From Tubiluchus corallicola (lineage: Eukaryota; Animalia; Priapulida), in the NCBI GenBank assembly GCA_030141605.1, contig JAQGDQ010000838.1:1-64000 (forward strand): a stretch of 64,000 bases of DNA, written 5' to 3'. A model generated the notes under the pieces. It did no database searches and was not told where the DNA came from. It saw only the letters and a program-made list of their open reading frames with translations. The position numbers were made by a program, and so were the translations under genes. This document shows, one piece after another, positions 1 through 62,359 of this stretch; the stretch's first letter is position 1, and every line of letters begins with the position of its first letter.

Positions 1-425
1 ATTTTGTTTTAAAATGTTTCAGTTCTAAGATATAATTACAAAAAAACGAACTATATATGTGTGATTTTGTTTTAAAATGTTTCAGTTCTAAGATATAATT
101 ACAAAAAAACGAACTATATATGTGTGATTTTGTTTCAAAATGTTTCAGTTCTAAGATATAATTACAAAAAACGAACTATATATGTGTGATTTTGTTTTAA
201 AATGTTTCAGTTCTAAGATATAATTACAAAAAAACGAACTATATATGTGTGATTTTGTTTCAAAATGTTTCAGTTCTAAGATATAATTACAAAAAAACGA
301 ACTATATATGTGTGATTTTGTTTCAAAATGTTTCAGTTCTAAGATATAATTACAAAAAAACGAACTATATATGTGTGATTTTGTTTTAAAATGTTTCAGT
401 TTTGGATGTAATTACAAAAAAACCC
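1..425. repeat. 63-bp tandem satellite array (first copy, runs off the window start)
   Basis: Unit attttgttttaaaatgtttcagttctaagatataattacaaaaaaacgaactatatatgtgtg repeats about 6.5 times. Confidence 0.95.
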
Positions 426-5066: not shown

Positions 5067-5246
5067 AACTGTAGTAGACATGAGCGACTAAGAAACACTC
5101 TTTATACAGAAATTAGCTCTCTATATCCAAACTTTACTTACTTATCAGATGATGACAAACTAAAATTATTATTAGGCTCAAACGATTCTGAAATACTCCA
5201 AATTGCTTATAATTTTGTTTTAAAATGTTTCAGTTCTAAGATATAA
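5067..5246 (+). mobile_element. C-terminus of a LINE (CR1/L2-like) ORF2
   Basis: Open frame NCSRHERLRNTLYTEISSLYPNFTYLSDDDKLKLLLGSNDSEILQIAYNFVLKCFSSKI* resembles non-LTR ORF2 C-termini; its last codons are the first satellite unit. Confidence 0.65.
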
Positions 5247-7864
5247 TTACAAAAAAACGAACTATATATGTGTGATTTTGTTTTAAAATGTTTCAGTTCT
5301 AAGATATAATTACAAAAAAACGAACTATATATGTGTGATTTTGTTTCAAAATGTTTCAGTTCTAAGATATAATTACAAAAAAACGAACTATATATGTGTG
5401 ATTTTGTTTTAAAATGTTTCAGTTCTAAGATATAATTACAAAAAAACGAACTATATATGTGTGATTTTGTTTTAAAATGTTTCAGTTCTAAGATATAATT
5501 ACAAAAAAACGAACTATATATGTGTGATTTTGTTTTAAAATGTTTCAGTTCTAAGATATAATTACAAAAAAACGAACTATATATGTGTGATTTTGTTTTA
5601 AAATGTTTCAGTTCTAAGATATAATTACAAAAAAACGAACTATATATGTGTGATTTTGTTTTAAAATGTTTCAGTTCTAAGATATAATTACAAAAAAACG
5701 AACTATATATGTGTGATTTTGTTTTAAAATGTTTCAGTTCTAAGATATAATTACAAAAAAACGAACTATATATGTGTGATTTTGTTTTAAAATGTTTCAG
5801 TTCTAAGATATAATTACAAAAAAACGAACTATATTGTGTGATTTTGTTTCAAAATGTTTCAGTTCTAAGATATAATTACAAAAACGAACTATATATGTGT
5901 GATTTTGTTTTAAAATGTTTCAGTTCTAAGATATAATTACAAAAAAACGAACTATATATGTGATTTTGTTTTAAAATGTTTCAGTTCTAAGATATAATTA
6001 CAAAAAAACGAACTATATGTGTGATTTTGTTTCAAAATGTTTCAGTTCTAAGATATATTACAAAAAACGAACTATATATGTGTGATTTTGTTTTAAAATG
6101 TTTCAGTTCTAAGATATAATTACAAAAAACGAACTATATATGTGTGATTTTGTTTTAAAATGTTTCAGTTCTAAGATATAATTACAAAAAAACGAACTAT
6201 ATATGTGTGATTTTGTTTCAAAATGTTTCAGTTCTAAGATATAATTACAAAAAAACGAACTATATATGTGTGATTTTGTTTTAAAATGTTTCAGTTCTAA
6301 GATATAATTACAAAAACGAACTATATATGTGATTTTGTTTTAAAATGTTTCAGTTCTAAGATATAATTACAAAAAAACGAACTATATATGTGTGATTTTG
6401 TTTCAAAATGTTTCAGTTCTAAGATATAATTACAAAAAAACGAACTATATATGTGTGATTTTGTTTTAAAATGTTTCAGTTCTAAGATATAATTACAAAA
6501 AACGAACTATGTGTGATTTTGTTTTAAAATGTTTCAGTTCTAAGATATAATTACAAAAAACGAACTATATATGTGTGATTTTGTTTTAAAATGTTTCAGT
6601 TCTAAGATATAATTACAAAAACGAACTATATATGGATTTGTTTTAAAATGTTTCAGTTCTAAGATATAATTACAAAACGAACTATATATGTGTGATTTTG
6701 TTTTAAAATGTTTCAATTCTAAGATATAATTACAAAAAAACGAACTATATATGTGTGATTTTGTTTTAAAATGTTTCAGTTCTAAGATATAATTACAAAA
6801 AAACGAACTATATATGTGTGATTTTGTTTTAAAATGTTTCAGTTCTAAGATATAATTACAAAAAACGAACTATATATGTGTGATTTTGTTTTAAATGTTT
6901 CAGTTCTAAGATATAATTACAAAAACGAACTATATATGTGTGATGTTTTAAAATGTTTCAGTTCTAAGATATAATTACAAAAAAACGAACTATATATGTG
7001 ATTTTGTTTCAAAATGTTTCAGTTCTAAGATATAATTACAAAAAACGAACTATATATGTGTGATTTTGTTTTAAAATGTTTCAGTTCTAAGATATAATTA
7101 CAAAAACGAACTATATATGTGTGATTTTGTTTTAAAATGTTTCAGTTCTAAGATATAATTACAAAAAACGAACTATATATGTGTGATTTTGTTTTAAAAT
7201 GTTTCAGTTCTAAGATATAATTACAAAAAAACGAACTATATATGTGTGATTTTGTTTTAAAATGTTTCAGTTCTAAGATATAATTACAAAAAAACGAACT
7301 ATATATGTGTGATTTTGTTTTAAAATGTTTCAGTTCTAGGATATAATTACAAAAAAAAACGAACTATATATGTGTGATTTTGTTTCAAAATGTTTCAGTT
7401 CTAAGATATAATTACAAAAAAACGAACTATATATGTGTGATTTTGTTTTAAAATGTTTCAGTTCTAAGATATAATTACAAAAAAACGAACTATATATGTG
7501 TGATTTTGTTTTAAAATGTTTCAGTTCTAAGATATAATTACAAAAAAACGAACTATATATGTGTGATTTTGTTTCAAAATGTTTCAGTTCTAAGATATAA
7601 TTACAAAAAAACGAACTATATATGTGTGATTTTGTTTTAAAATGTTTCAGTTCTAGGATATAATTACAAAAAACGAACTATATATGTGTGATTTTGTTTC
7701 AAAATGTTTCAGTTCTAAGATATAATTACAAAAAAACGAACTATATATGTGTGATTTTGTTTCAAAATGTTTCAGTTCTAAGATATAATTACAAAAAAAC
7801 GAACTATATATGTGTGATTTTGTTTTAAAATGTTTCAGTTTTGGATGTAATTACAAAAAAACCC
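5212..7864. repeat. 63-bp tandem satellite array (~42 units)
   Basis: Same unit as 1-425, highly homogeneous with homopolymer-length variants. Confidence 0.97.
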
Positions 7865-9690
7865 AACATATATATAACTAACATCACTTATCTAAATTAA
7901 ATACTATATGTGTATGCAACTACATTAAATTTGTGTTTATGTACATTTATGTTGTACCATTGGGTTTATACGTCAAAGTTTGATGTTCTGTCTTTAGTTT
8001 AAATTATTGAATGTGACTTGTATTCTTAGTATATGATTTTATAGCGTTATATATGTATGTAATTATACCTTTGTAATCAGTGTGTGTATAATGTGAATTG
8101 TAATTGTAACGGTAATTATCTAATAAAATATGAAAACATGAAAAATATGATTCAAATCTCTTAACTGTGAAGCTTTGAAATTGTTTTCTGCCATTAGTTT
8201 AAACAATATTTTATCAATCATAAGTACATTTATAACAAAAACAATGGGTACTTAATCAGACGCTGATTCATTACTCTGTTTCAGAGAGTAGGTACGTCAC
8301 TTATAAATTTAGTAGGCACACGATTACAAGAACTGTTAGTTATTCATTAAGTAAGACTGAAATTGAGAAGGTTTGTAACTTGTTGTTTGAATAGCGGGTA
8401 TGCGAAAGGGTGGGTTATGACATGTTTGATGTTGATGTTAAGCTACAAGAATAGAATGAGTGATGATGAAGCTAATGAAAGAAAGAGGAAAGTGCTGGGG
8501 TCAGGGGGACGCAAAAGTATAAATAATTCGCCTTGTAAGGTAGAATTCAGAGATTATTAATGTGCTATAGATTTAATTTTATTAATTAAAGCGCCCACTT
8601 TGTATTATAAACGAAATGACAGCAGATACTACAGCATTGTTAGAATCAGGAGACAGTGAAGTATCCGCCAAATAGCAGTTTCTGCCAGTATGTCAGTTTG
8701 CAGGTCGTGTTTTGCCAATTTGCGAGTAACGTAACAAAATCTTTGTGTTTGTAACTGCATGCCCACAATTTAATTAGCAGTAATGTACAGCCGTGATGCA
8801 AGAAGGTAGATAAGTCTTAATGCTTCTATCTAAAAATACTTTCGGTGATAAAACTTTGCGCAGCTGTGCTTAACAAATACAGCACTGAATTTACTATGAC
8901 ATCTATTCTGTTGTGAGACACAAGCGGTGGCTATATATCTAAATGATCACACAGTGTTACTATGGAACAGAATGGAAAAAATTACGACAGCGAATACAAC
9001 TAATACGTCAATCAGTTATAATAATAATTCGTGAAGTTGTTAAAAGACGGAAGAAGGAGTAAGTAGACTGGCATTTACTGATTTACTCTTTGACCCTAAA
9101 AAACATTCTTAATAAGACCCAAAAACATACTCTTAGTATATGTTAAGTTAATATATGAAGTATATTAAGTATAATAAGTACATGTTAAGTATACAAGTTA
9201 AATTAATATATGATCTATATGTTGAGAGTCCAGTATAACAAGTACATGTTAAGTATATAAGTTAAATTAATATATGTTCTATATGTTGAGAGTCAATTTA
9301 TTGAGTGTAAGCCATTCAGTAACATAAAACTCTAAATTTATTTAATTATTGTCAACAAAGAAGGTATTTGTGTCCTCTGCAAAGGAAGACGAGCTTTATT
9401 ACTACAAAGAGGCATGTTATTTACATACAAAAGAAATAAAAGTGGACCTAATGTTGATCCCTGAGGGAAATCGACTATTTTAAGGAGTTTGGAGCATTGA
9501 TATTGATATCCATCTACTTCAGTGCCTTGGATGCAACTTCAACATGTTGTTTGATGTTTGTTTACCTCAAGTTGATCATGTCTCACCATAACTCACAAGC
9601 CGTTTGTAAATAAGATGTTTGTTTTAGTAGGTGATAGTTGCTTTTATCATCTTTGTTTTCAGGAAAATTGTATGTGGCGGCATAAGAGTT
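7840..9690. repeat. Segmental duplication copy 2
   Basis: Matches 401-2316. Confidence 0.95.
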
Positions 9691-11171
9691 CGTTCTTGTG
9701 TCTCTGGCATACTGGGCATCAAAGCCAAGCTGATCCGCTCGGTAATAAGAGGCTCGTGCAACATCTGGAGAAAGTACCTGCGAGCGTGATGATACAATGG
9801 CCAACAGGAAAGAAGGGAGTATACTCCCGTCGCCTCTGGCACAGGATGATGCATCCTAGGGCAACCTGGAAGCGACACAGGTGGTACGATCGACGCCTGT
9901 GAAATTCCGTCTGATCTACGCTCAAACTTTTATGTAATCAGTTGGGCAGAACAATAACTTTTTCATCTTTAGCTTTTTGCTGTTTGTTACGCTTCTTTTG
10001 ATAACGGTTTCATAAAGTATTCGCTTGATGTATACGACACTACTTCCTGGAGTTTGGGGGACAGAGTGTCTTTTGGACCAAAACTATAACTACTGCTGAC
10101 ATCCTTCAGTGAGCGAGTTGTGTGAGCATGTTACACAGAACTGTCCTCCAACGCAAAGCTGGCGGTGACAGAAAGTCGGATACATCTTCGGTGGAAAAAA
10201 GGATGTGGGTCCATTGAAATGTCAACTGCTATCTGCGCCTGTGCTTTTCTCTGCAAAAGAAAGTATTATTAAAGACTGTAATTAGCTGGTTACAATTACT
10301 AACTACGTAGATTAAGCAGGTTTTGCAGTTGAATCGTTGAAAAATAAGGATTGTGTTAGTTTAAACATAATTTATTATAGGATCGGATTAGACAGTTTGA
10401 ACAACATGATTTAGGATCCTCACCACAACAGACTTTATACACTATTTACAAGAACATTTACAGTAAGAATGGACTATACCTACATAAGCTGACAAGTTTT
10501 ACTACAAGAATACATTAGTCATTAGTAGAAAATGACGGTTAGAAAATATTAATGTACGATTATTTAAGACTGATGCATTTAATATCAAATAGAAATTACC
10601 GGAAGCGTTTAATACGTAATATAAAGTTATGTATGCACTGGAATATTTTACAGTTAAGCAGTTAATTTAACAACATAGTTAAATTAGTCTTTTCCGAATA
10701 ATAACAACTTCAATAGATCATTATTTCCTAAGGTAGCTAAGGTATACATGTATTGGGAAAGGTATTGGCTTCATGTAAGGACTGTATTGTCAACACGCTG
10801 TTTAGGTGAGGAGGTACCTGAATTTGTACCAGCATGTAATAGCTGGTAGAGTTTCGATTAATATGAAAGCCTTGCAGAGGAAAAGGTGTTTGCAGTTGCT
10901 CTTTATCCAGGTGAAAAAGACCCTGTTATCAAATGCGTGTATGTACACAATGTGCAAATTAATGACGAATAAATATTACCCACAATTGTATGCAGATAGG
11001 TAAACAAAAATATAAACTTGAGAACTGCAGACTGATTAACATCACTGATAATTATGGTACAGCATGTAATGATTGATACTCGTAATTCTAGAGGTGCAAT
11101 CGACATGGTAAACCTGTCAATACAATCCACAATCCATTTATTAAATAAACAAAATCATTTTATCTTATCTT

Positions 11172-21535: not shown

Positions 21536-22677
21536 ATTTGTTTGCCGTAAAATGGATTTCATTTTACGTAATCCTCAGTGATAAAACGAATTAATAATTG
21601 TTAAAACACTGCTACACTGCTAAAAGCAAATGCGTTTGGTGCAAAACTATGAAGTACTGTGCACAAAACTGAAACTAGAAACAACTAGAAATACTCATTT
21701 ACATACATAGATACGATAGATACAGTAATACAATATATAGGGACAATATAAGTAAAATGTATAATAAACGCAAGACAAAGTTTACATTAATTTATCACAA
21801 TATACGCATAATACGTAATACAAAACATAGAGTAATATGGTACATAAAATACATAATAACAAGGACTAGGTTCACACCAATTTCGCAATAAACACATTAC
21901 AATCATATGTAATACACAACAGAAATTACTTGCAGATTGCCGTTTTAATTTACGAATGAGTTGCGAATTAACATACAACTACTACAGCTATAGCTCACGG
22001 AAGGCCAAAATGCTAATGTATTGAAGGGGCTTCAATTTTAAAAGAGTGAATACTGTAAAAGGCTAAATACCTACTAAATAAACAAACAGGTGGCAGCACC
22101 GTGGCAGTAATTGAAAACTAAATTAAGACCAAAAAGGGCCTATGCACCCACTGCAATATACATTTTAATTACATTAGTGCCTCTCTTTCTATAAATGGTC
22201 CGAATTAGGTTAATCATTGTTTTCTAAGCCGCATCCGAGAAAAATGGAGAGTAGAGAAAAAGAGAGAATAGTGAAGAAATGGAGAGGAAAAAGAGATGAG
22301 TAGAGCCCTATTTAATAATCTTGTTTTAAGTTTGCTAGATCGTAATGCAGTTACGTCTTCTTCAGATCATTGAAATTCCATCTCTTTGCTTAACACCAAA
22401 GGACCTTGCAAAAAGATGTCACAATCCAGCCACACTTCTAGAAGTTCATGGTGCGTCCAAATTTAATTTGAAGAAAAGAGGTAATAAAAGACGAAGTGGT
22501 TATGGCAAACGTTCATCAACTGGTTTTGGCACTGGATCATCCACTGGTTATGGTGCCAAGTCTTCTACTGGTTACGGTGCGGGATCGTCCAATGGTTATG
22601 GTGCTGGATCGGCCACTGGTTATGGTTCGCAATCCCCTTCTGGTTATGGCTCAGGATTCACCAATGGTTATTTTTAG
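16483..22677 (+). CDS. Secreted divergent pentraxin/LamG (ConA-like) domain protein with GYG-repeat tail, ~372 aa, 8 exons
   Basis: Phase-compatible GT-AG exons 16483-16518, 17118-17144, 17517-17595, 18560-18713, 19851-20003, 20130-20256, 21182-21412, 22366-22677 (1119 nt). Pentraxin-like motifs FTVCWWLK, HYCVVVD, VYWNG, LSDINVYSRALS, CxxCGDVF. The first three exons are tentative. Confidence 0.75.
17517..17595 (+). CDS. Pentraxin-like gene, probable exon (end of signal peptide)
   Basis: tttctttcgtag acceptor and G|gtaatt donor; VVATLDIWTVHGARGYNFKKMKTEKF; phase 0 to 1 fits the next exon. Confidence 0.5.
18105..18525. repeat. (CTTA/CTTG/CATA)n tetranucleotide microsatellite, intronic
   Basis: Direct inspection. 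Confidence 0.9.
18560..18713 (+). CDS. Pentraxin-like gene exon
   Basis: ttttatag acceptor and TG|gtatga donor; TTVPCNTLD...DEFTVC. Confidence 0.8.
19135..19630. repeat. ~70-85-bp minisatellite with variable (CACTT)n, intronic
   Basis: Unit ctatttcgcatcgttgctcttgctttactttcctgttactttaccttacttcactcttt(cactt)n, about 6 copies. Confidence 0.9.
19851..20003 (+). CDS. Pentraxin-like gene exon
   Basis: WLKGKADVFYLHS...GNEFT; GA|gtaagt donor. Confidence 0.8.
20130..20256 (+). CDS. Pentraxin-like gene exon
   Basis: FVTVNPS...FIHYCVVVD...VYWNGGAD; gtaaga donor. Confidence 0.8.
20860..21118 (+). mobile_element. Helentron/DINE-like non-autonomous element (tentative)
   Basis: Starts actag with an imperfect palindrome ggcactcagaagaggtgcc, internal atgaccttgacc motif, weak 3' hairpin. 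Confidence 0.35.
21182..21412 (+). CDS. Pentraxin-like gene exon
   Basis: VQQQPAAF...LSDINVYSRALSASRI...PLGG; gtaagt donor. Confidence 0.85.
22366..22677 (+). CDS. Pentraxin-like gene terminal exon with GYG octapeptide repeats
   Basis: cttcttcag acceptor, IIEIPSLC...NGYF*, AATAAA at 22843-22848. Confidence 0.8.
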   Translation: MIEIPSLCLTPKDLAKRCHNPATLLEVHGASKFNLKKRGNKRRSGYGKRSSTGFGTGSSTGYGAKSSTGYGAGSSNGYGAGSATGYGSQSPSGYGSGFTNGYF

Positions 22678-39203: not shown

Positions 39204-40499
39204 AGAAGTCACCCCGGAATGGTGTTCAGCTGCCATTGTAACCTCTTTTCTATTTAATGTAATGTATTCTCTATTGAATGTAATCTATTCTTATACGACG
39301 TCTCTTACAGAAATAAGCAGCCAGAATTAAACAAAACAGCGAAAAAGTCGTTCTTACGCCCAAAGAGCAGTATTACACATCGTTAATAGAAGCAAAAAAC
39401 AAGTACTTTTCATTATTACACTATTAGTTCTCCTGGAGCTAGCATACAAAAGTATAGGTCGTTATTAGTTTGTAATTGAATAGCAAGAAATAAGTCAAAT
39501 AAATATGTGACAAAATTGCAATTTCGTCTTGATGAGGTGTGAACAATCTTCGTACGGGCGTAAAAAACACCTGTCATCTGTAAATGATGCAAAACAGCAG
39601 GTTTGTTCGTAATTCACTCAGCTGCAAGTGTTGAAAAGTGTTTTGCAGTGTTTACAATATCTAAAATATTGTTTTACCGCATAGAAAAGCTTTTACGTGA
39701 GCTGTGTAATTGTTGTAGATTCCTGTTTAAGGCCATTTGAGCTGGATGTTGCATTGTGCTGCCACCTAGCAACGAAAATAATACGAAAACAATTTACTCT
39801 GATTTTGGCCTTCGATGAAACCTTTGAGCATCGTAGCTTTTGAGTTTTGAAACATATAGGCAGTGTCGGCTCTACCACTAGACAAACAAGCAGTCGACAG
39901 AGGCGCCAAAATCTGGAACTATTGTTTAGTTTTTAAATTTAACTTTAATATTAAAAATAACATAGTGTTACTTAACTGCACAACACGTTAATTAAAGCAA
40001 AACCGGACCCAATTTTAAACTGTAGGTCAACACTGCTAGATTTTCCTACATAAACGTTTTCATCAGGAGGGCGCCACACGCTCTAGCTACATCACTGTAG
40101 CTAGAATTACAAAAAAATTACCAAATTCCAAGAAACAGGCCTTTAGGCAACTAGCAGCATTACGAAAACGGGGCAAGTAATGCGTCAGTAGTTATATATG
40201 CCTTATTAACTTGAACCAGTGACGCATTTGCGGATACACAATACGTGGTTTATGCATTCCATGTGTAATAGCTAGGCAGCTTATTAAATTATGACGCCAC
40301 ACTGAATATATTTATGTGTCAAGTGTGAATATCCTAAGTTTAAATCGGGACGTTGTCCTGGAAAAGCGGATATCCTGGTTTATGTCCTCCTGGAGTGACG
40401 ACGTACGGTTTAGTTTGAAAATTTGGCATGTTTCAAGCTAGACGATCGTGTTACTGTGATTTTAATTTTCCTGGTGATTTCGATGTGTGCACTAGAAGC

Positions 40500-41090
40500 T
40501 AAAACCGGATCCATCTTAAACTGCAGGTCAAAACAATCTACTTTTTAAAATATTGAAAGGGAACTTACTTTTTTTCAAAAATGACTTACGTGAAAGAATT
40601 ATTACCACACACACAATTTCACGTTCGCGCCACTAGTTCTTCGCTGTTACATGCATTTCGCCATTTTCTAGTTAGACGGGCACTAGCGTCTGCATTTCGG
40701 AAACGCATTGCACAAAAAACAGGTGATGTACCTTCCAGTTCATATGTGTTAGTTTGTGACAAACAGCGTGAGTACAGCGGTAAATTTTAAATTTGAATTT
40801 TTATCTTAAAACTTGCCTAGTTTTAGTACAACAAATTGAATATCTTACACTAGCACTGTACTTCAATTTTCGCTTATGCAAACACGTGCAAAACGCTCGT
40901 GGAATACTTTTGCTATTGAAAATTATGTTAGTTTGTGATGTCATCGATACTTGGGCTCGCGCGCCGTTAATTAAGTTCTTAATCTATTATTTAATTATCC
41001 GAAAGCTTTTGCAGTATTAACTGTGTTAAAATGTATACTTTTATCGGATTTGAAAATAGGTTAGTATATGAAAAATCATTCTGTCTTCCT
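40500..41090. mobile_element. Kolobok-like non-autonomous element, copy 3
   Basis: Homologous to 29610-30227. Confidence 0.7.
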
Positions 41091-41516: not shown

Positions 41517-41604
<88 letters not shown>

Positions 41605-41635
41605 CAGTAGCAGTAGTAGCAGTAGCAGTAGCAGC

Positions 41636-41689
<54 letters not shown>
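41517..41689. repeat. (CAG)n-(TAG)n trinucleotide repeat, tail of the adjacent minus-strand LINE
   Basis: On the minus strand it follows aataaagatttt directly. Confidence 0.95.
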
Positions 41690-41690
<1 letters not shown>

Positions 41691-42095: not shown

Positions 42096-42302
42096 TTAGA
42101 TTTTCATTGATTCAAAATTTAAACTATTTAAAGAGAATAAATTATCGTGTGGATGAATCAATAATCTTTTTTGTTGTTTTCTTTCAGTGGTATCTGATGT
42201 ACAATCTGCGCAAAACGTTGTTCTGGGAATTATTTGCATTGTTTGCGGGAATTTAGCTTGCCAAAATTGTACTGGACAGTGTACACTAGGCATCTCTTAA
42301 CA

Positions 42303-44015
42303 ATGGCCATGATACCAGCAAATGTAGTGAACACGCCGAACTACGTGGTACAAGAAATGGCTGTACAAAATATGGCGACCGTGCAGCAAAAGCAAGACAG
42401 ACACCTAGCGGGAGATATAACAACTAAGAAACTGGCATTTGCTGCAGCGATCACTCAAACGGTTTTTGGTTTGATTTTTCTGCTTTTGCAAGTTATTGTG
42501 GTTTCTGTGACCTGTCGTGGTTGTGACGGAGCGTTGATTGGCTTATGGGCAGGCATTGTGTTTACAGTCACAGGAATTGTGGGATGTGTAGGAAGATTTA
42601 AGGACAGACCAGGAGTGTGGATAGGTTTCATGGTGTTATCTATTATTTCTGCAATAATAACATGCATAGCGTTAATTACAGCTGGTATTGTAGCAGCATT
42701 TACATCGGATCAAAACAGCACAGTTCACAATATTCACGTAACGTACGTTGCCTTTTGTGTACTAGAATTTATTACATCCCTTTTCTCAGCTGTAGTGTGC
42801 TGCAAGTTAATGTGCTGTAGAGTGACAGATTACAGCAAAAATCAAATGACAATCGTACCAGCATCAGCTACTGAACCTGGAAGAATGACAGGTGTGGTTG
42901 CCATCAATCAAGAGCAGAAGACGGAAGTTGTGTACGACCTTCCTTATGTTACACCACTTCCGCCGACGATGTCTGCAGGTCCTGCACTACCTCCTAGACC
43001 AGATGAAGTCACCGGTAACAACAAAATGCGATACAGAGAAAATCTTGCAAAAACTACTTCGGATGAAGTTGACACGAAGAGGAGCAAAATTCGCTATCTT
43101 GAAAAACTTGGGGAAGGAAGTTACAATGAAGTTTACAAAGCCATACTGCACAAAGATGCACAAGATAGAAACGTAGAAGAAAAAACAGTCATAGCCAAGT
43201 GTGCAATAAGGGGAAAACGAAATCAGTTTGTTACTGCATATCACGAAAAAGAGCTTGAGACTTTGAGAGAAATTCCTGTCCATGAAAATCTGCTGGGTAT
43301 TATCACGAAAATAAATGATGCAGACAAAGGTCAGGTGGTAATCGTTGATTATATGGAGGATGGAGACTTAAAATCGTTCCTTGTGAAGGAAGCAGAGTGT
43401 ACCGACCAGTACACAAATAGTGCTAACTTGACTGTCAGGATGGCAGTATCATTTGCTTCTGACATTGTCTCTGGACTTGAACATCTGGCTAAGCATAAAT
43501 GCTTGTGTCGTGATTTGGCCGCTAGGAGCATTCTTGTCTCTGCAGACCTTAGGTGCAAGGTCACTAAATTTGGGAAAGAAGAAGACGTTGTTAGTTATCG
43601 GTGCAGCGTGAAGAGATTACAAAAGCGTTTGCCAGTTCGCTGGATGGCACCCGAGTCTTTGCAATTTAACAAGTATTCTACAGAATCAGATGTCTGGTCA
43701 TTTGGGGTACTCTTCTGGGAAATCGTAACTCTTGGAGCTACGCCCTATCCAGAACACAAAACGGCTGGTGAGGTCGTTGAAGCCATCAGAAATGGATACC
43801 GCATGGAGTGTCCTCCGGGCTGCTCAGAGGAGTTGTATGAGCTGATCGAAGTTTGCTGGCGTGAAAGTCCCGATGACAGACCCAGCTTTCAACAACTGCG
43901 TCAGCAGTTACAGCAGATGCTGGAAGATGTCAGTGGCTACGAATCATTATCTGATTATAAGCTCATTGATGTCTATCAGGACCTCATGGCGGGTAACATT
44001 GACGAAATTGTCTGA
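42303..44015 (+). CDS. MS4A/CD20-like four-TM protein fused to a tyrosine pseudokinase with an ITAM-like tail (570 aa, intronless CDS)
   Basis: ATG in acaATGG context with a splice acceptor at 42187. Four hydrophobic helices with MS4A-like GLWAGIVF..G and E..S..SA..CC. TK motifs [35 protein letters not shown]...P..RP.F. Confidence 0.92.
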
Positions 44016-61900: not shown

Positions 61901-62359
61901 CAAATTCACACTCGTTAAAAAAAATGTGTTTTGATGAGTTCTCAATTTTTTTCTTGAAGACAAACTGTTACATAAACCAAAAAAAATGAAATTTATTATG
62001 TACTAAACAAGTTTTATTCTCCTCACACTGTTACCTCTTATTCATGATACGAAACTCTCGATGGGGTTCAATTCATGATAAGTCATAAAATAGAAGGTAA
62101 GAGAATATAAAACTACCAAATTATTTAAACATTACATAACAATCTAATATTTCACAATTTGCTATTTTACTTACGCCCAGAAATCTTCTACAGTATCAAA
62201 TGACGTGATATCGCAAAGGTTTTCCTCCCACTGCTTGGACTTGTCATTTTTAAAGAACCACAGTGTCCAGGCATTCTGTAATGGATGCTTTATGAGTAAT
62301 TCTGGGCTAATTTCAACTTCTTTGCTGACTACTGCCTTCTGTTCTGACGATTCTTTGTC
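52906..62359 (-). CDS. eIF4E: Eukaryotic translation initiation factor 4E, class I (5' coding exon not found in window)
   Basis: Exons 62175-62359 (KHPLQNAWTLWFFKNDKSKQWEENL..TVEDFW), 61788-61851 or 61625-61688, 58026-58139 (GIKPMWEDEKNRNGGRW), 56215-56354 (LLCLVGEAFD..VCGAVINIRTKGDKLAMWT), 54053-54107, 52906-52965 (KSGSTAKNRFTC*). All are GT-AG and phase-compatible. Confidence 0.97.
53082..53612. mobile_element. Foldback-like element with ~70-bp imperfect inverted ends and internal ~60-bp tandem repeats
   Basis: acaactttattaaaacttttaatttacatagttaaaa..catgtcaaa is inverted as tttgacatg..ttttaactatgtaaattaagagttttaataaagttgt. Confidence 0.7.
54053..54107 (-). CDS. eIF4E: eIF4E exon
   Basis: RKLKERLSIPPKVQIGFQ, 55 nt. 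Confidence 0.93.
55215..56034. mobile_element. hAT-like MITE with subterminal ~23-bp repeats
   Basis: 25-bp TIR cagggatgtcaccgaaacgaaattt (22/25 match); imperfect 8-bp TSD ctcagtac/cccagaac; tandem ttcggtttgccatgtttggtaaat at 55826-56005. Confidence 0.75.
56215..56354 (-). CDS. eIF4E: eIF4E exon
   Basis: LLCLVGEAFDEHSENVCGAVINIRTKGDKLAMWTADARNSEATMKIG. Confidence 0.96.
58026..58139 (-). CDS. eIF4E: eIF4E exon
   Basis: QGIKPMWEDEKNRNGGRWLINLNKQQRYSDLDNFWMET, 114 nt. Confidence 0.96.
58222..58834. mobile_element. Tc1/mariner-pogo type MITE
   Basis: TA-cagtgttccctcacttatcgc ... gcgatgtagcgaggaaacactg-TA. Confidence 0.8.
59117..59495. mobile_element. TA-target MITE family, copy 1
   Basis: cactcat..tcggtttgcc / ggcaaaccgagatgagtg; homologous to 60986-61298. 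Confidence 0.7.
60986..61298. mobile_element. TA-target MITE family, copy 2
   Basis: TA-cactcatatctcggt ... accgagatatgagtg-TA. Confidence 0.8.
61625..61688 (-). CDS. eIF4E: eIF4E alternative 64-nt exon, variant A
   Basis: cag|A..AAG|gtaag; LYNHIEVASRLQSGCDYSLFK. Confidence 0.92.
61788..61851 (-). CDS. eIF4E: eIF4E alternative 64-nt exon, variant B
   Basis: tag|G..AAG|gtgag; LYNHVLSPTHLPHGCDYSLFK. Confidence 0.88.
62175..62359 (-). CDS. eIF4E: eIF4E exon
   Basis: DKESSEQKAVVSKEVEISPELLIKHPLQNAWTLWFFKNDKSKQWEENLCDITSFDTVEDFW. Confidence 0.96.

What the first reader, a model, noticed from the sequence alone, without database searches (positions are those of the whole stretch)
42303..44015. 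Tetraspan MS4A/CD20-like membrane domain fused to a tyrosine-kinase fold: candidate new receptor class
Seen: one uninterrupted 570-aa ORF has four hydrophobic helices (with [23 protein letters not shown] and [13 protein letters not shown], a CxxC loop and an NST sequon), then a linker and a complete TK domain. Known: MS4A proteins (CD20, FceRI-beta, necklace-neuron chemoreceptors) are small 4-TM proteins with both termini cytosolic and no enzyme domain, while classical receptor tyrosine kinases are single-pass. Inference: the kinase fold would lie in the cytosol, giving a self-contained sensor/scaffold. I do not know this architecture from described gene families.
Basis: partly seen in the sequence, partly recalled or inferred. 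Interest (0 to 1): 0.92.

Follow-up and report, generated by a model that had tools for sequence, protein, structure and literature searches.

The report
Four-pass MS4A receptor with dead kinase
This animal gene joins a CD20-like four-pass membrane domain to a tyrosine-kinase domain that has lost its magnesium-binding residues, a pairing also found in a marine priapulid worm, and it likely works as a signalling scaffold rather than an enzyme.

Summary
The 570-aa ORF is real and unbroken. Residues 44-172 are a CD20/MS4A-like four-helix membrane domain: a profile of its relatives hits FcεRIβ (E 7.6e-16) and CD20, and the AlphaFold model (pLDDT 83) matches FcεRIβ. Residues 264-536 are a Cad96Ca/Ret-type tyrosine-kinase domain. 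The same architecture with the same lesions exists in Priapulus caudatus (XP_014662088.1, mislabelled 'Ret-like'). The two kinase domains form one clade (100/99) and their linkers are homologous (z 9.4), so the fusion and the inactivation most likely happened once and were kept. Contigs show further copies 82-89% alike. Both proteins keep an SH3-ligand-like PxLPxR and several tyrosines. The best reading is a non-catalytic co-receptor or scaffold, like FcεRIβ and HER3 joined in one chain. Ten literature searches found no description of this architecture. Expression, ligand, partners and the host's phylum are untested. Verdict: a new multi-pass variant of receptor tyrosine pseudokinases, not a new active receptor kinase.

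The parts
42165..42187 (+). Pyrimidine tract and AG: likely splice acceptor of a 5'-UTR intron (upstream exon not located)
   Evidence: sequence; inferred
42197..42256 (+). 19-codon upstream ORF in another frame, ending before the main ATG
42303..44015 (+). Intron-free coding sequence, 570 aa (P0001)
42432..42818 (+). CD20/MS4A-like four-helix membrane domain, residues 44-172, with the family motif G80-x-W82-x-G84...G91..G94, E155 and the C166/C167/C171/C172 cluster after TM4; both ends predicted cytosolic
42819..43088 (+). Cytosolic linker, residues 173-262, homologous to the Priapulus linker; Y215 conserved
42981..42998 (+). PALPPR (227-232): PxLPxR motif, like a class II SH3 ligand (consensus recalled); PPLPRR in Priapulus
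43092..43910 (+). Tyrosine-kinase-fold domain, residues 264-536, Cad96Ca/Ret-type; predicted pseudokinase
43110..43127 (+). Degraded glycine loop GEGSYN (third Gly replaced by Asn)
43188..43202 (+). Beta-3 strand VIAKC (296-300): either K299 is kept with Ile at the conserved Ala position, or Cys takes the Lys column, depending on alignment register
43506..43529 (+). Catalytic loop CRDLAARS (402-409): base D404 kept, His replaced by Cys, metal-binding Asn replaced by S409
43566..43574 (+). KFG (422-424) in place of DFG
43938..43985 (+). C-terminal tail Y546-ESL-x8-Y558-QDL: ITAM-like spacing; only the first YxxL is kept in Priapulus

Best explanation
The gene encodes one chain in which a CD20/MS4A-like four-pass membrane domain is fused to a Cad96Ca/Ret-type tyrosine-kinase domain lacking both magnesium-binding residues, so it is predicted to be a pseudokinase that likely serves as a co-receptor or scaffold. 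Shown: the fusion, the two domain identities, the lost residues, and a second full-length member in Priapulus caudatus with the same lesions. Inferred: the four helices place the protein in a membrane receptor complex by side-on contacts, as FcεRIβ and MS4A4A do. The PxLPxR linker motif would pre-bind an SH3 protein such as a Src-family kinase or an adaptor. An active kinase acting in trans would phosphorylate the kept tyrosines (Y215, Y432, Y546) to recruit SH2 proteins. The well-conserved kinase C-lobe would act as a docking or allosteric surface, as in HER3. Also inferred: the fusion arose once, with inactivation before the two lineages split, possibly through a processed (intron-free) copy.
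For: Pseudokinase: CRD..S and KFG in the window, NRD..S and NFG in Priapulus, against HRD..N and D(F/L)G in 20 of 20 other kinase domains. A review states that loss of DFG is expected to preclude Mg2+ binding, and that such receptors signal by trans-phosphorylation and allostery (PMC13259870, passages). Membrane domain: 46 of 59 hits carry Pfam CD20 at E<=1e-4; the profile hits FcεRIβ at 7.6e-16 and CD20 at 7.8e-10; the model matches FcεRIβ at Z 17.1, rmsd 2.5, 135 aligned. Single origin: kinase clade 100/99; 18 residues shared only by the two, against at most 4 with any other row; linker z 9.4, 0 of 1000 shuffles reach it. Kept under selection: residues 440-505 are 67% identical against 28-35% for the membrane domain, linker and N-lobe; 21 of 39 listed coding differences among contigs are synonymous where 22% of sites are. 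PxLPxR is in both linkers (1.1% and 1.9% of shuffles), in 0 of 18 other receptor-kinase juxtamembrane regions and in 0 of 59 MS4A-like proteins. MS4A2 amplifies Lyn-dependent signalling, and MS4A4A steers the receptor kinase KIT (PMC11663944, passages).
Against: Only two full-length members were found, so conserved motifs rest on n=2, and the PxLPxR pattern was chosen after seeing the sequences. The catalytic Asp (D404) and the αC Glu (E317) are kept, and probably the β3 Lys, so residual activity is not excluded. The ITAM-like tail is not kept in Priapulus, lacks the acidic residue at -3, and the same spacing occurs in 9 of 18 ordinary relatives, so it is inherited rather than special. The membrane-domain tree does not join the two members; their grouping is only not rejected (AU p 0.44). 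Fold search alone does not single out MS4A: sarcospan Z 17.3, uroplakin 16.0 and a designed helix bundle 14.9 score alike. The synonymous count uses 39 of the 40 best-supported rows out of 389 and pools contigs. Some contigs of other copies carry small gaps or unrelated flanks, so not every copy need be intact.
Confidence: 0.55

Rival explanations
1. Self-contained chemosensor: a small hydrophobic ligand binds the MS4A bundle and switches the conformation or clustering of the pseudokinase domain directly.
For: CD20 is reported as an odorant receptor (PMC11026480, title and abstract start). Ciona MS4A genes are enriched in palp cells, and ascidian MS4A loops are variable (bioRxiv 2022.08.15.492342, passages). 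The loops differ strongly between the two members, and several copies exist here.
Against: The 90-residue low-confidence linker couples membrane and kinase domain only loosely (weak model). The extracellular loops of this copy are about 5-7 residues. No ligand pocket was tested.
Confidence: 0.17
2. Decoy or brake: the dead kinase domain pairs with active receptor kinases of its parent family, or soaks up their SH2/SH3 partners, and so dampens or re-routes them.
For: The kinase derives from a single-pass receptor family (sister to Lingula Cad96Ca-like kinases, 98/98) and keeps the substrate-side C-lobe and the tail. MS4A4A controls KIT trafficking.
Against: The added PxLPxR and the kept tyrosines fit recruitment equally well. 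Whether this animal has an active parent-family kinase could not be checked, as no genome is held.
Confidence: 0.15
3. Atypical but active kinase, as the first reader's 'receptor class' implies, with K422 or another residue standing in for the metal.
For: D404 and E317 are kept, probably K299 too, and the activation-loop Y432 is conserved in both members.
Against: Both Mg-binding residues are lost in both members, and the DFG replacement differs (Lys against Asn), so it is not a conserved substitute. The glycine loop is degraded in both.
Confidence: 0.08
4. Non-functional processed copy or assembly chimera.
For: The coding sequence has no intron in a window where the eIF4E gene has kilobase introns, and repeats flank it. 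No single listed contig spans TM4 to the kinase start.
Against: The frame is open for 570 codons. Near-identical contigs of two studies tile the gene. The same fusion, with a homologous linker, exists in another species. Listed differences lean synonymous.
Confidence: 0.05

Closest known systems
Priapulus caudatus XP_014662088.1 (RefSeq prediction, named 'Ret-like')
   Same: CD20 domain (E 1.2e-12) plus PK_Tyr_Ser-Thr in one 624-aa chain; same lost Asn; lost DFG Asp; homologous linker with PxLPxR; 38% identity overall.
   Different: Second extracellular loop of about 55 aa with two Cys; VAVK intact; only one tail YxxL. It is a database prediction with a misleading name, and no paper on it was found.
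Receptor tyrosine pseudokinases (HER3, EphB6, EphA10, PTK7, ROR1/2, RYK, STYK1)
   Same: Membrane-anchored tyrosine-kinase fold with broken catalytic motifs; EphB6 also has Ser for the catalytic-loop Asn and no DFG Asp (Table 2 of PMC13259870).
   Different: All are described as single-pass. This protein has four passes, no signal peptide and no ectodomain.
MS4A family (FcεRIβ/MS4A2, CD20/MS4A1, MS4A4A) and the invertebrate CD20-like proteins
   Same: Homologous four-helix domain; predicted N-in/C-in topology; tail tyrosine and SH3-type motifs.
   Different: 0 of 59 related membrane proteins found carry a kinase domain. Vertebrate members recruit kinases in trans. The second loop is nearly absent here.
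Cad96Ca/Stitcher-like receptor kinases, nearest the Lingula anatina group (XP_023933531.1, XP_013382122.1)
   Same: Source family of the kinase domain and of the two-tyrosine tail.
   Different: Catalytically intact motifs; the longer Lingula member is single-pass.
Multi-pass kinase fusions elsewhere: TRPM6/7 channel-kinases, oomycete GPCR-kinase fusions (recalled, not checked by any search)
   Same: Multi-pass membrane domain and kinase fold in one chain.
   Different: Unrelated membrane domains, other kinase classes, and largely active enzymes.

Membership tests
CD20-like / MS4A superfamily domain | Four membrane helices with both ends cytosolic | tested here: met
   Hydropathy; model helices at pLDDT >90; K/R counts 4, 3, 3 on the inner flanks against 1 and 0 in the loops. 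A prediction only.
CD20-like / MS4A superfamily domain | Sequence homology to solved MS4A proteins | tested here: met
   Profile of 65 sequences: FcεRIβ 7.6e-16, CD20 7.8e-10, sarcospan 2.1e-6, a tetraspanin 0.33.
CD20-like / MS4A superfamily domain | Pfam PF04103 above its gathering score | tested here: inconclusive
   Window protein 17.8 bits against a cut-off of 27.9; its Priapulus homologue 48.6.
Vertebrate MS4A gene family proper | Stand-alone protein of up to about 300 aa, no enzyme domain | tested here: not met
   570 aa with a kinase fold; size range from PMC2826416 passage.
Vertebrate MS4A gene family proper | Orthology by phylogeny or synteny | not tested
   No vertebrate sequences were in the tree, and the membrane-domain tree was unresolved.
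Tetraspanins (CD9/CD81 type) | Large second extracellular loop with CCG motif (recalled definition) | tested here: not met
   Loop of about 5 residues, no CCG.
Active receptor tyrosine kinases | HRDxxxxN catalytic loop | tested here: not met
   CRDLAARS.
Active receptor tyrosine kinases | DFG motif | tested here: not met
   KFG.
Active receptor tyrosine kinases | VAIK lysine and αC glutamate | tested here: inconclusive
   E317 is kept. K299 is in register by BLAST with a one-residue gap but shifted by MAFFT.
Receptor tyrosine pseudokinases | Tyrosine-kinase fold with substituted catalytic residues | tested here: met
Receptor tyrosine pseudokinases | Ectodomain plus single membrane pass | tested here: not met
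   Four passes, no ectodomain.
Receptor tyrosine pseudokinases | No measurable phosphotransfer | not testable with these tools
   Needs an enzyme assay.
ITAM-bearing subunits (FcεRIβ type) | (D/E)xxYxxL-x7-9-YxxL/I in the C-terminal tail | tested here: inconclusive
   Spacing met (Y546, x8, Y558), acidic residue at -4 rather than -3, motif absent in Priapulus.

The most novel reading that the evidence does not exclude
An old animal family of four-pass receptor pseudokinases: an MS4A-type sensing bundle wired in one chain to a kinase-fold switch and Src/SH2 docking sites. It would be the first multi-pass class among tyrosine-kinase-fold receptors and would show directly how MS4A domains pass on signals. 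If this host is not a priapulid, the family would span phyla.
Probability: 0.25. Interest if true: 0.85.

Novelty: new variant of a known kind. Interest (0 to 1): 0.64.

Why it matters
Receptor tyrosine kinases and pseudokinases are described as single-pass proteins, and MS4A proteins borrow kinases from partners; how MS4A domains signal is still open. A natural, conserved fusion is a 'Rosetta stone' link between the two and gives a single-chain test system for MS4A-to-phosphotyrosine coupling. It also corrects a database label (the Priapulus 'Ret-like' protein) and adds profile-level evidence that invertebrate CD20-like proteins are true MS4A relatives, which a 2010 survey doubted (PMC2826416, passages). 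Limits: two full-length members, non-model animals, no functional data.

Tried and rejected
No host genome is held, so paralogue count, gene neighbours and phylum stayed open. Sequencing runs: no RNA holder listed, which says nothing on expression. The one guessed-RNA run did not cover the gene. A word-based search with residues 30-240 found 0 of 3244 candidates. It missed even the Priapulus protein, as did the search of representatives, so further fused members can have been missed; 'longer' and 'shorter' lengths were not searched. Two metagenome scans found nothing. The single-sequence fold of the full protein was unusable (pLDDT 39), so the kinase pocket was not modelled. Foldseek gave no hit at E<=0.001; its top four rows were FcεRI chains. 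Homodimer prediction of the membrane domain gave no answer, score 0.00, neither for nor against. The protein atlas returned only kinase clusters for the whole protein and never answered for the N-terminal part. NCBIfam gave only sub-threshold bacterial kinase models. No earlier scan notes exist. The idea that the linker comes from the receptor-kinase juxtamembrane region was not supported: best z 2.1 among 14 such regions, best z 3.5 among 40 MS4A-like tails; its origin is unresolved. The CxxC as a family disulphide and the NST as a used sequon were rejected as unconserved or too close to the membrane. A Pfam scan of 149 other frames of the window found only an eIF4E exon and one weak alternate-frame hit below cut-off.

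Full report
Observation. The ORF at 42303-44015 (+) encodes 570 aa without a break. It is the only long, non-repetitive ORF in a repeat-rich, 34% GC animal window. Four hydrophobic helices lie between residues 44 and about 170, and Pfam PK_Tyr_Ser-Thr covers 264-536 at E 3.9e-68. An acceptor-like AG at 42186-42187 is followed by an in-frame TGA and a 19-codon upstream ORF, and the ATG has a strong context. So the coding sequence is intron-free and a 5'-UTR intron is likely (inferred). Contigs from DNA runs of two studies match the gene at 98-100% in pieces, for example 42487-42949 in X4 and 42966-43585 in X1. No listed piece spans TM4 to the kinase start.

Membrane domain. Direct Pfam scores are below cut-off (Tetraspanin E 7.2e-5, CD20 E 0.0035). 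phmmer of residues 1-196 against 1.84 billion representatives gave 59 hits. Of these, 46 match Pfam CD20 at E<=1e-4 and none has a kinase domain. The named ones among the 10 looked up are from Ptychodera, Tubulanus and Ciona, the last named MS4A8. The window protein has the family's GxWxG..G..G motif, E155 and the Cys cluster after TM4. A profile of the 65-row alignment hits FcεRIβ (7.6e-16), CD20 (7.8e-10) and sarcospan (2.1e-6), and a tetraspanin only at 0.33. The model built on that alignment has pLDDT 82.9. Foldseek ranks FcεRI chains first but none at E<=0.001. VIA-align ties sarcospan (Z 17.3) and FcεRIβ (Z 17.1, rmsd 2.5, 135 aligned), with uroplakin at 16.0 and a designed bundle at 14.9. 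The fold agrees, but the sequence profile carries the assignment. Charges favour both ends inside the cell. Both outer loops are only about 5-7 residues in this copy.

Kinase domain. Its nearest solved relatives by sequence, after one tandem EGFR construct, are Tie2, Ret and FGFR, and database neighbours are Cad96Ca-like receptors. The catalytic motifs are broken: GxGxxG reads GEGSYN, HRDxxxxN reads CRDLAARS, and DFG reads KFG. All 20 other kinase domains in the alignment keep HRD..N and D(F/L)G. D404 and E317 remain. The β3 strand either keeps K299 with Ile at the usual Ala position or has Cys in the Lys column. By the criteria in PMC13259870 (passages and Table 2 seen) this is a predicted pseudokinase, closest in pattern to EphB6.

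A second member. In each of two searches, one of the returned proteins (1 of 13; 1 of 19; 7999 candidates scored each time) had both Pfam domains: XP_014662088.1 of Priapulus caudatus, 624 aa, named 'Ret-like', CD20 E 1.2e-12. It has CEGSTS, NRDLSARS and NFG. The two kinase domains group at 100/99, sister to Lingula Cad96Ca-like kinases at 98/98 (22 rows). With three long-branch rows removed, each one alone still attaches beside the Lingula pair (99/99 and 97/96). They share 18 residues seen in no other row, against at most 4 for any other pairing. Their linkers align at z 9.4, with 0 of 1000 shuffles reaching the score. The membrane-domain tree (56 rows; 9 of 65 left out as short or near-duplicate) is unresolved and does not join them, though it does not reject the grouping (AU p 0.44). 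One fusion followed by, or together with, inactivation is the simplest history (inferred). Its age cannot be given because the host's phylum was not determined. At 38% identity the two may be orthologues from distant species or old paralogues.

Other copies in the host. Contigs 82-89% alike cover the membrane domain plus linker (X1 record 3, X4 record 20) and the linker plus kinase (X2 record 12, 42923-43471), and the two sets overlap at 42923-42949. From its length, X4 record 20 holds the start codon to residue 216 with only about 24 extra bases, so that copy is likely intron-free too (inferred, assuming the loose end at 42301 belongs to it). A hand translation of one loose end gives a β3 strand VVAKC, like the window copy. 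Of the 40 differences shown (of 389), 39 are in the coding sequence: 21 synonymous and 18 not, where 22% of sites are synonymous. This hints at purifying selection, but the sample is pooled and selected. Some contigs have small gaps or unrelated flanks, so some copies may be broken.

How it likely works. Conservation between the two members peaks in the kinase C-lobe (67% over 440-505; 52% over 351-540) and is lower in the N-lobe (35%), membrane domain (33%) and linker (28%). This suits a kept binding surface rather than a kept ATP site, although C-lobes are also the most conserved part of active kinases. Both linkers hold PxLPxR (shuffle rates 1.1% and 1.9%; 0 of 18 other juxtamembrane regions, 0 of 59 MS4A-like proteins), and Y215, Y432 and Y546 are shared. 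The window copy ends in YxxL-x8-YxxL. The same spacing occurs in 9 of 18 ordinary relatives and not in Priapulus, so it is inherited and dispensable. Vertebrate MS4A proteins work as side-on partners of receptors: MS4A2 amplifies Lyn-dependent phosphorylation, and MS4A4A steers KIT and Dectin-1/Syk signalling (PMC11663944, passages). Receptor pseudokinases signal through trans-phosphorylation and allostery. Joining these, the best reading is a co-receptor or scaffold phosphorylated in trans (0.55). Rivals are a self-contained chemosensor (0.17), a decoy or brake (0.15), an atypical active kinase (0.08) and a dead copy or artefact (0.05). Every mechanistic step beyond architecture and residue loss is inference; expression was not examined.

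Novelty. Ten full-text searches of the open library turned up no description of an MS4A/CD20-kinase fusion. I saw listings and abstract starts for these, and keyword passages of four papers; no supplements were read, and subscription journals are not covered. The architecture already sits unremarked in RefSeq/UniRef for Priapulus. Multi-pass kinase fusions of other kinds exist (TRPM6/7, oomycete GPCR-kinases; recalled). I rate it a new variant of a known kind, a four-pass receptor tyrosine pseudokinase, with interest 0.64. It is surprising to kinase and MS4A specialists and well supported as a real conserved architecture, but it is narrow in known range and without functional data.

Noticed in passing
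window 62174-62359, about 58127 and about 56309, minus strand: Exons of an eIF4E gene (Pfam IF4E E 4.5e-11 for the first; motif matches for the others) separated by introns of 2-4 kb.
   Followed up: partly
window 22345-22677, plus strand: 110-aa ORF with basic pairs followed by Gly/Ser/Tyr repeats of 8 residues; could be an exon of a neuropeptide-like or structural protein; no Pfam hit.
   Followed up: no
window 1-423, 5212-7862 and 1-2317 against 7440-9694: A 63-base satellite array (about 43 copies) and a 2.3-kb duplicated block at 94.6% identity.
   Followed up: no
window 40488-41055 and 41517-41690: A very high-copy dispersed repeat, and a CAG-to-TAG microsatellite about 600 bases upstream of the start codon; many contigs skip about 40012-40518.
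   Followed up: no
P0019 (Ptychodera flava XP_070540019.1) and P0066: CD20-like proteins that appear to carry two tandem four-helix units.
   Followed up: no
P0003 and P0016 (Lingula anatina): Catalytically intact Cad96Ca-like kinases that are the nearest relatives of the pseudokinase and share a one-residue longer loop after the GATPYP motif.
   Followed up: partly
C-terminal tails of P0004, P0005, P0007, P0010-P0014, P0088: Cad96Ca-type receptor kinases end in two YxxL/I/V motifs with ITAM-like spacing (9 of 18 checked).
   Followed up: no
run X5 laid on window 43496-43966: A run with the same species label as the best holder shows only 84-89% similar pieces of this gene family among the listed contigs: a divergent population, a related species or paralogues only.
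   Followed up: no
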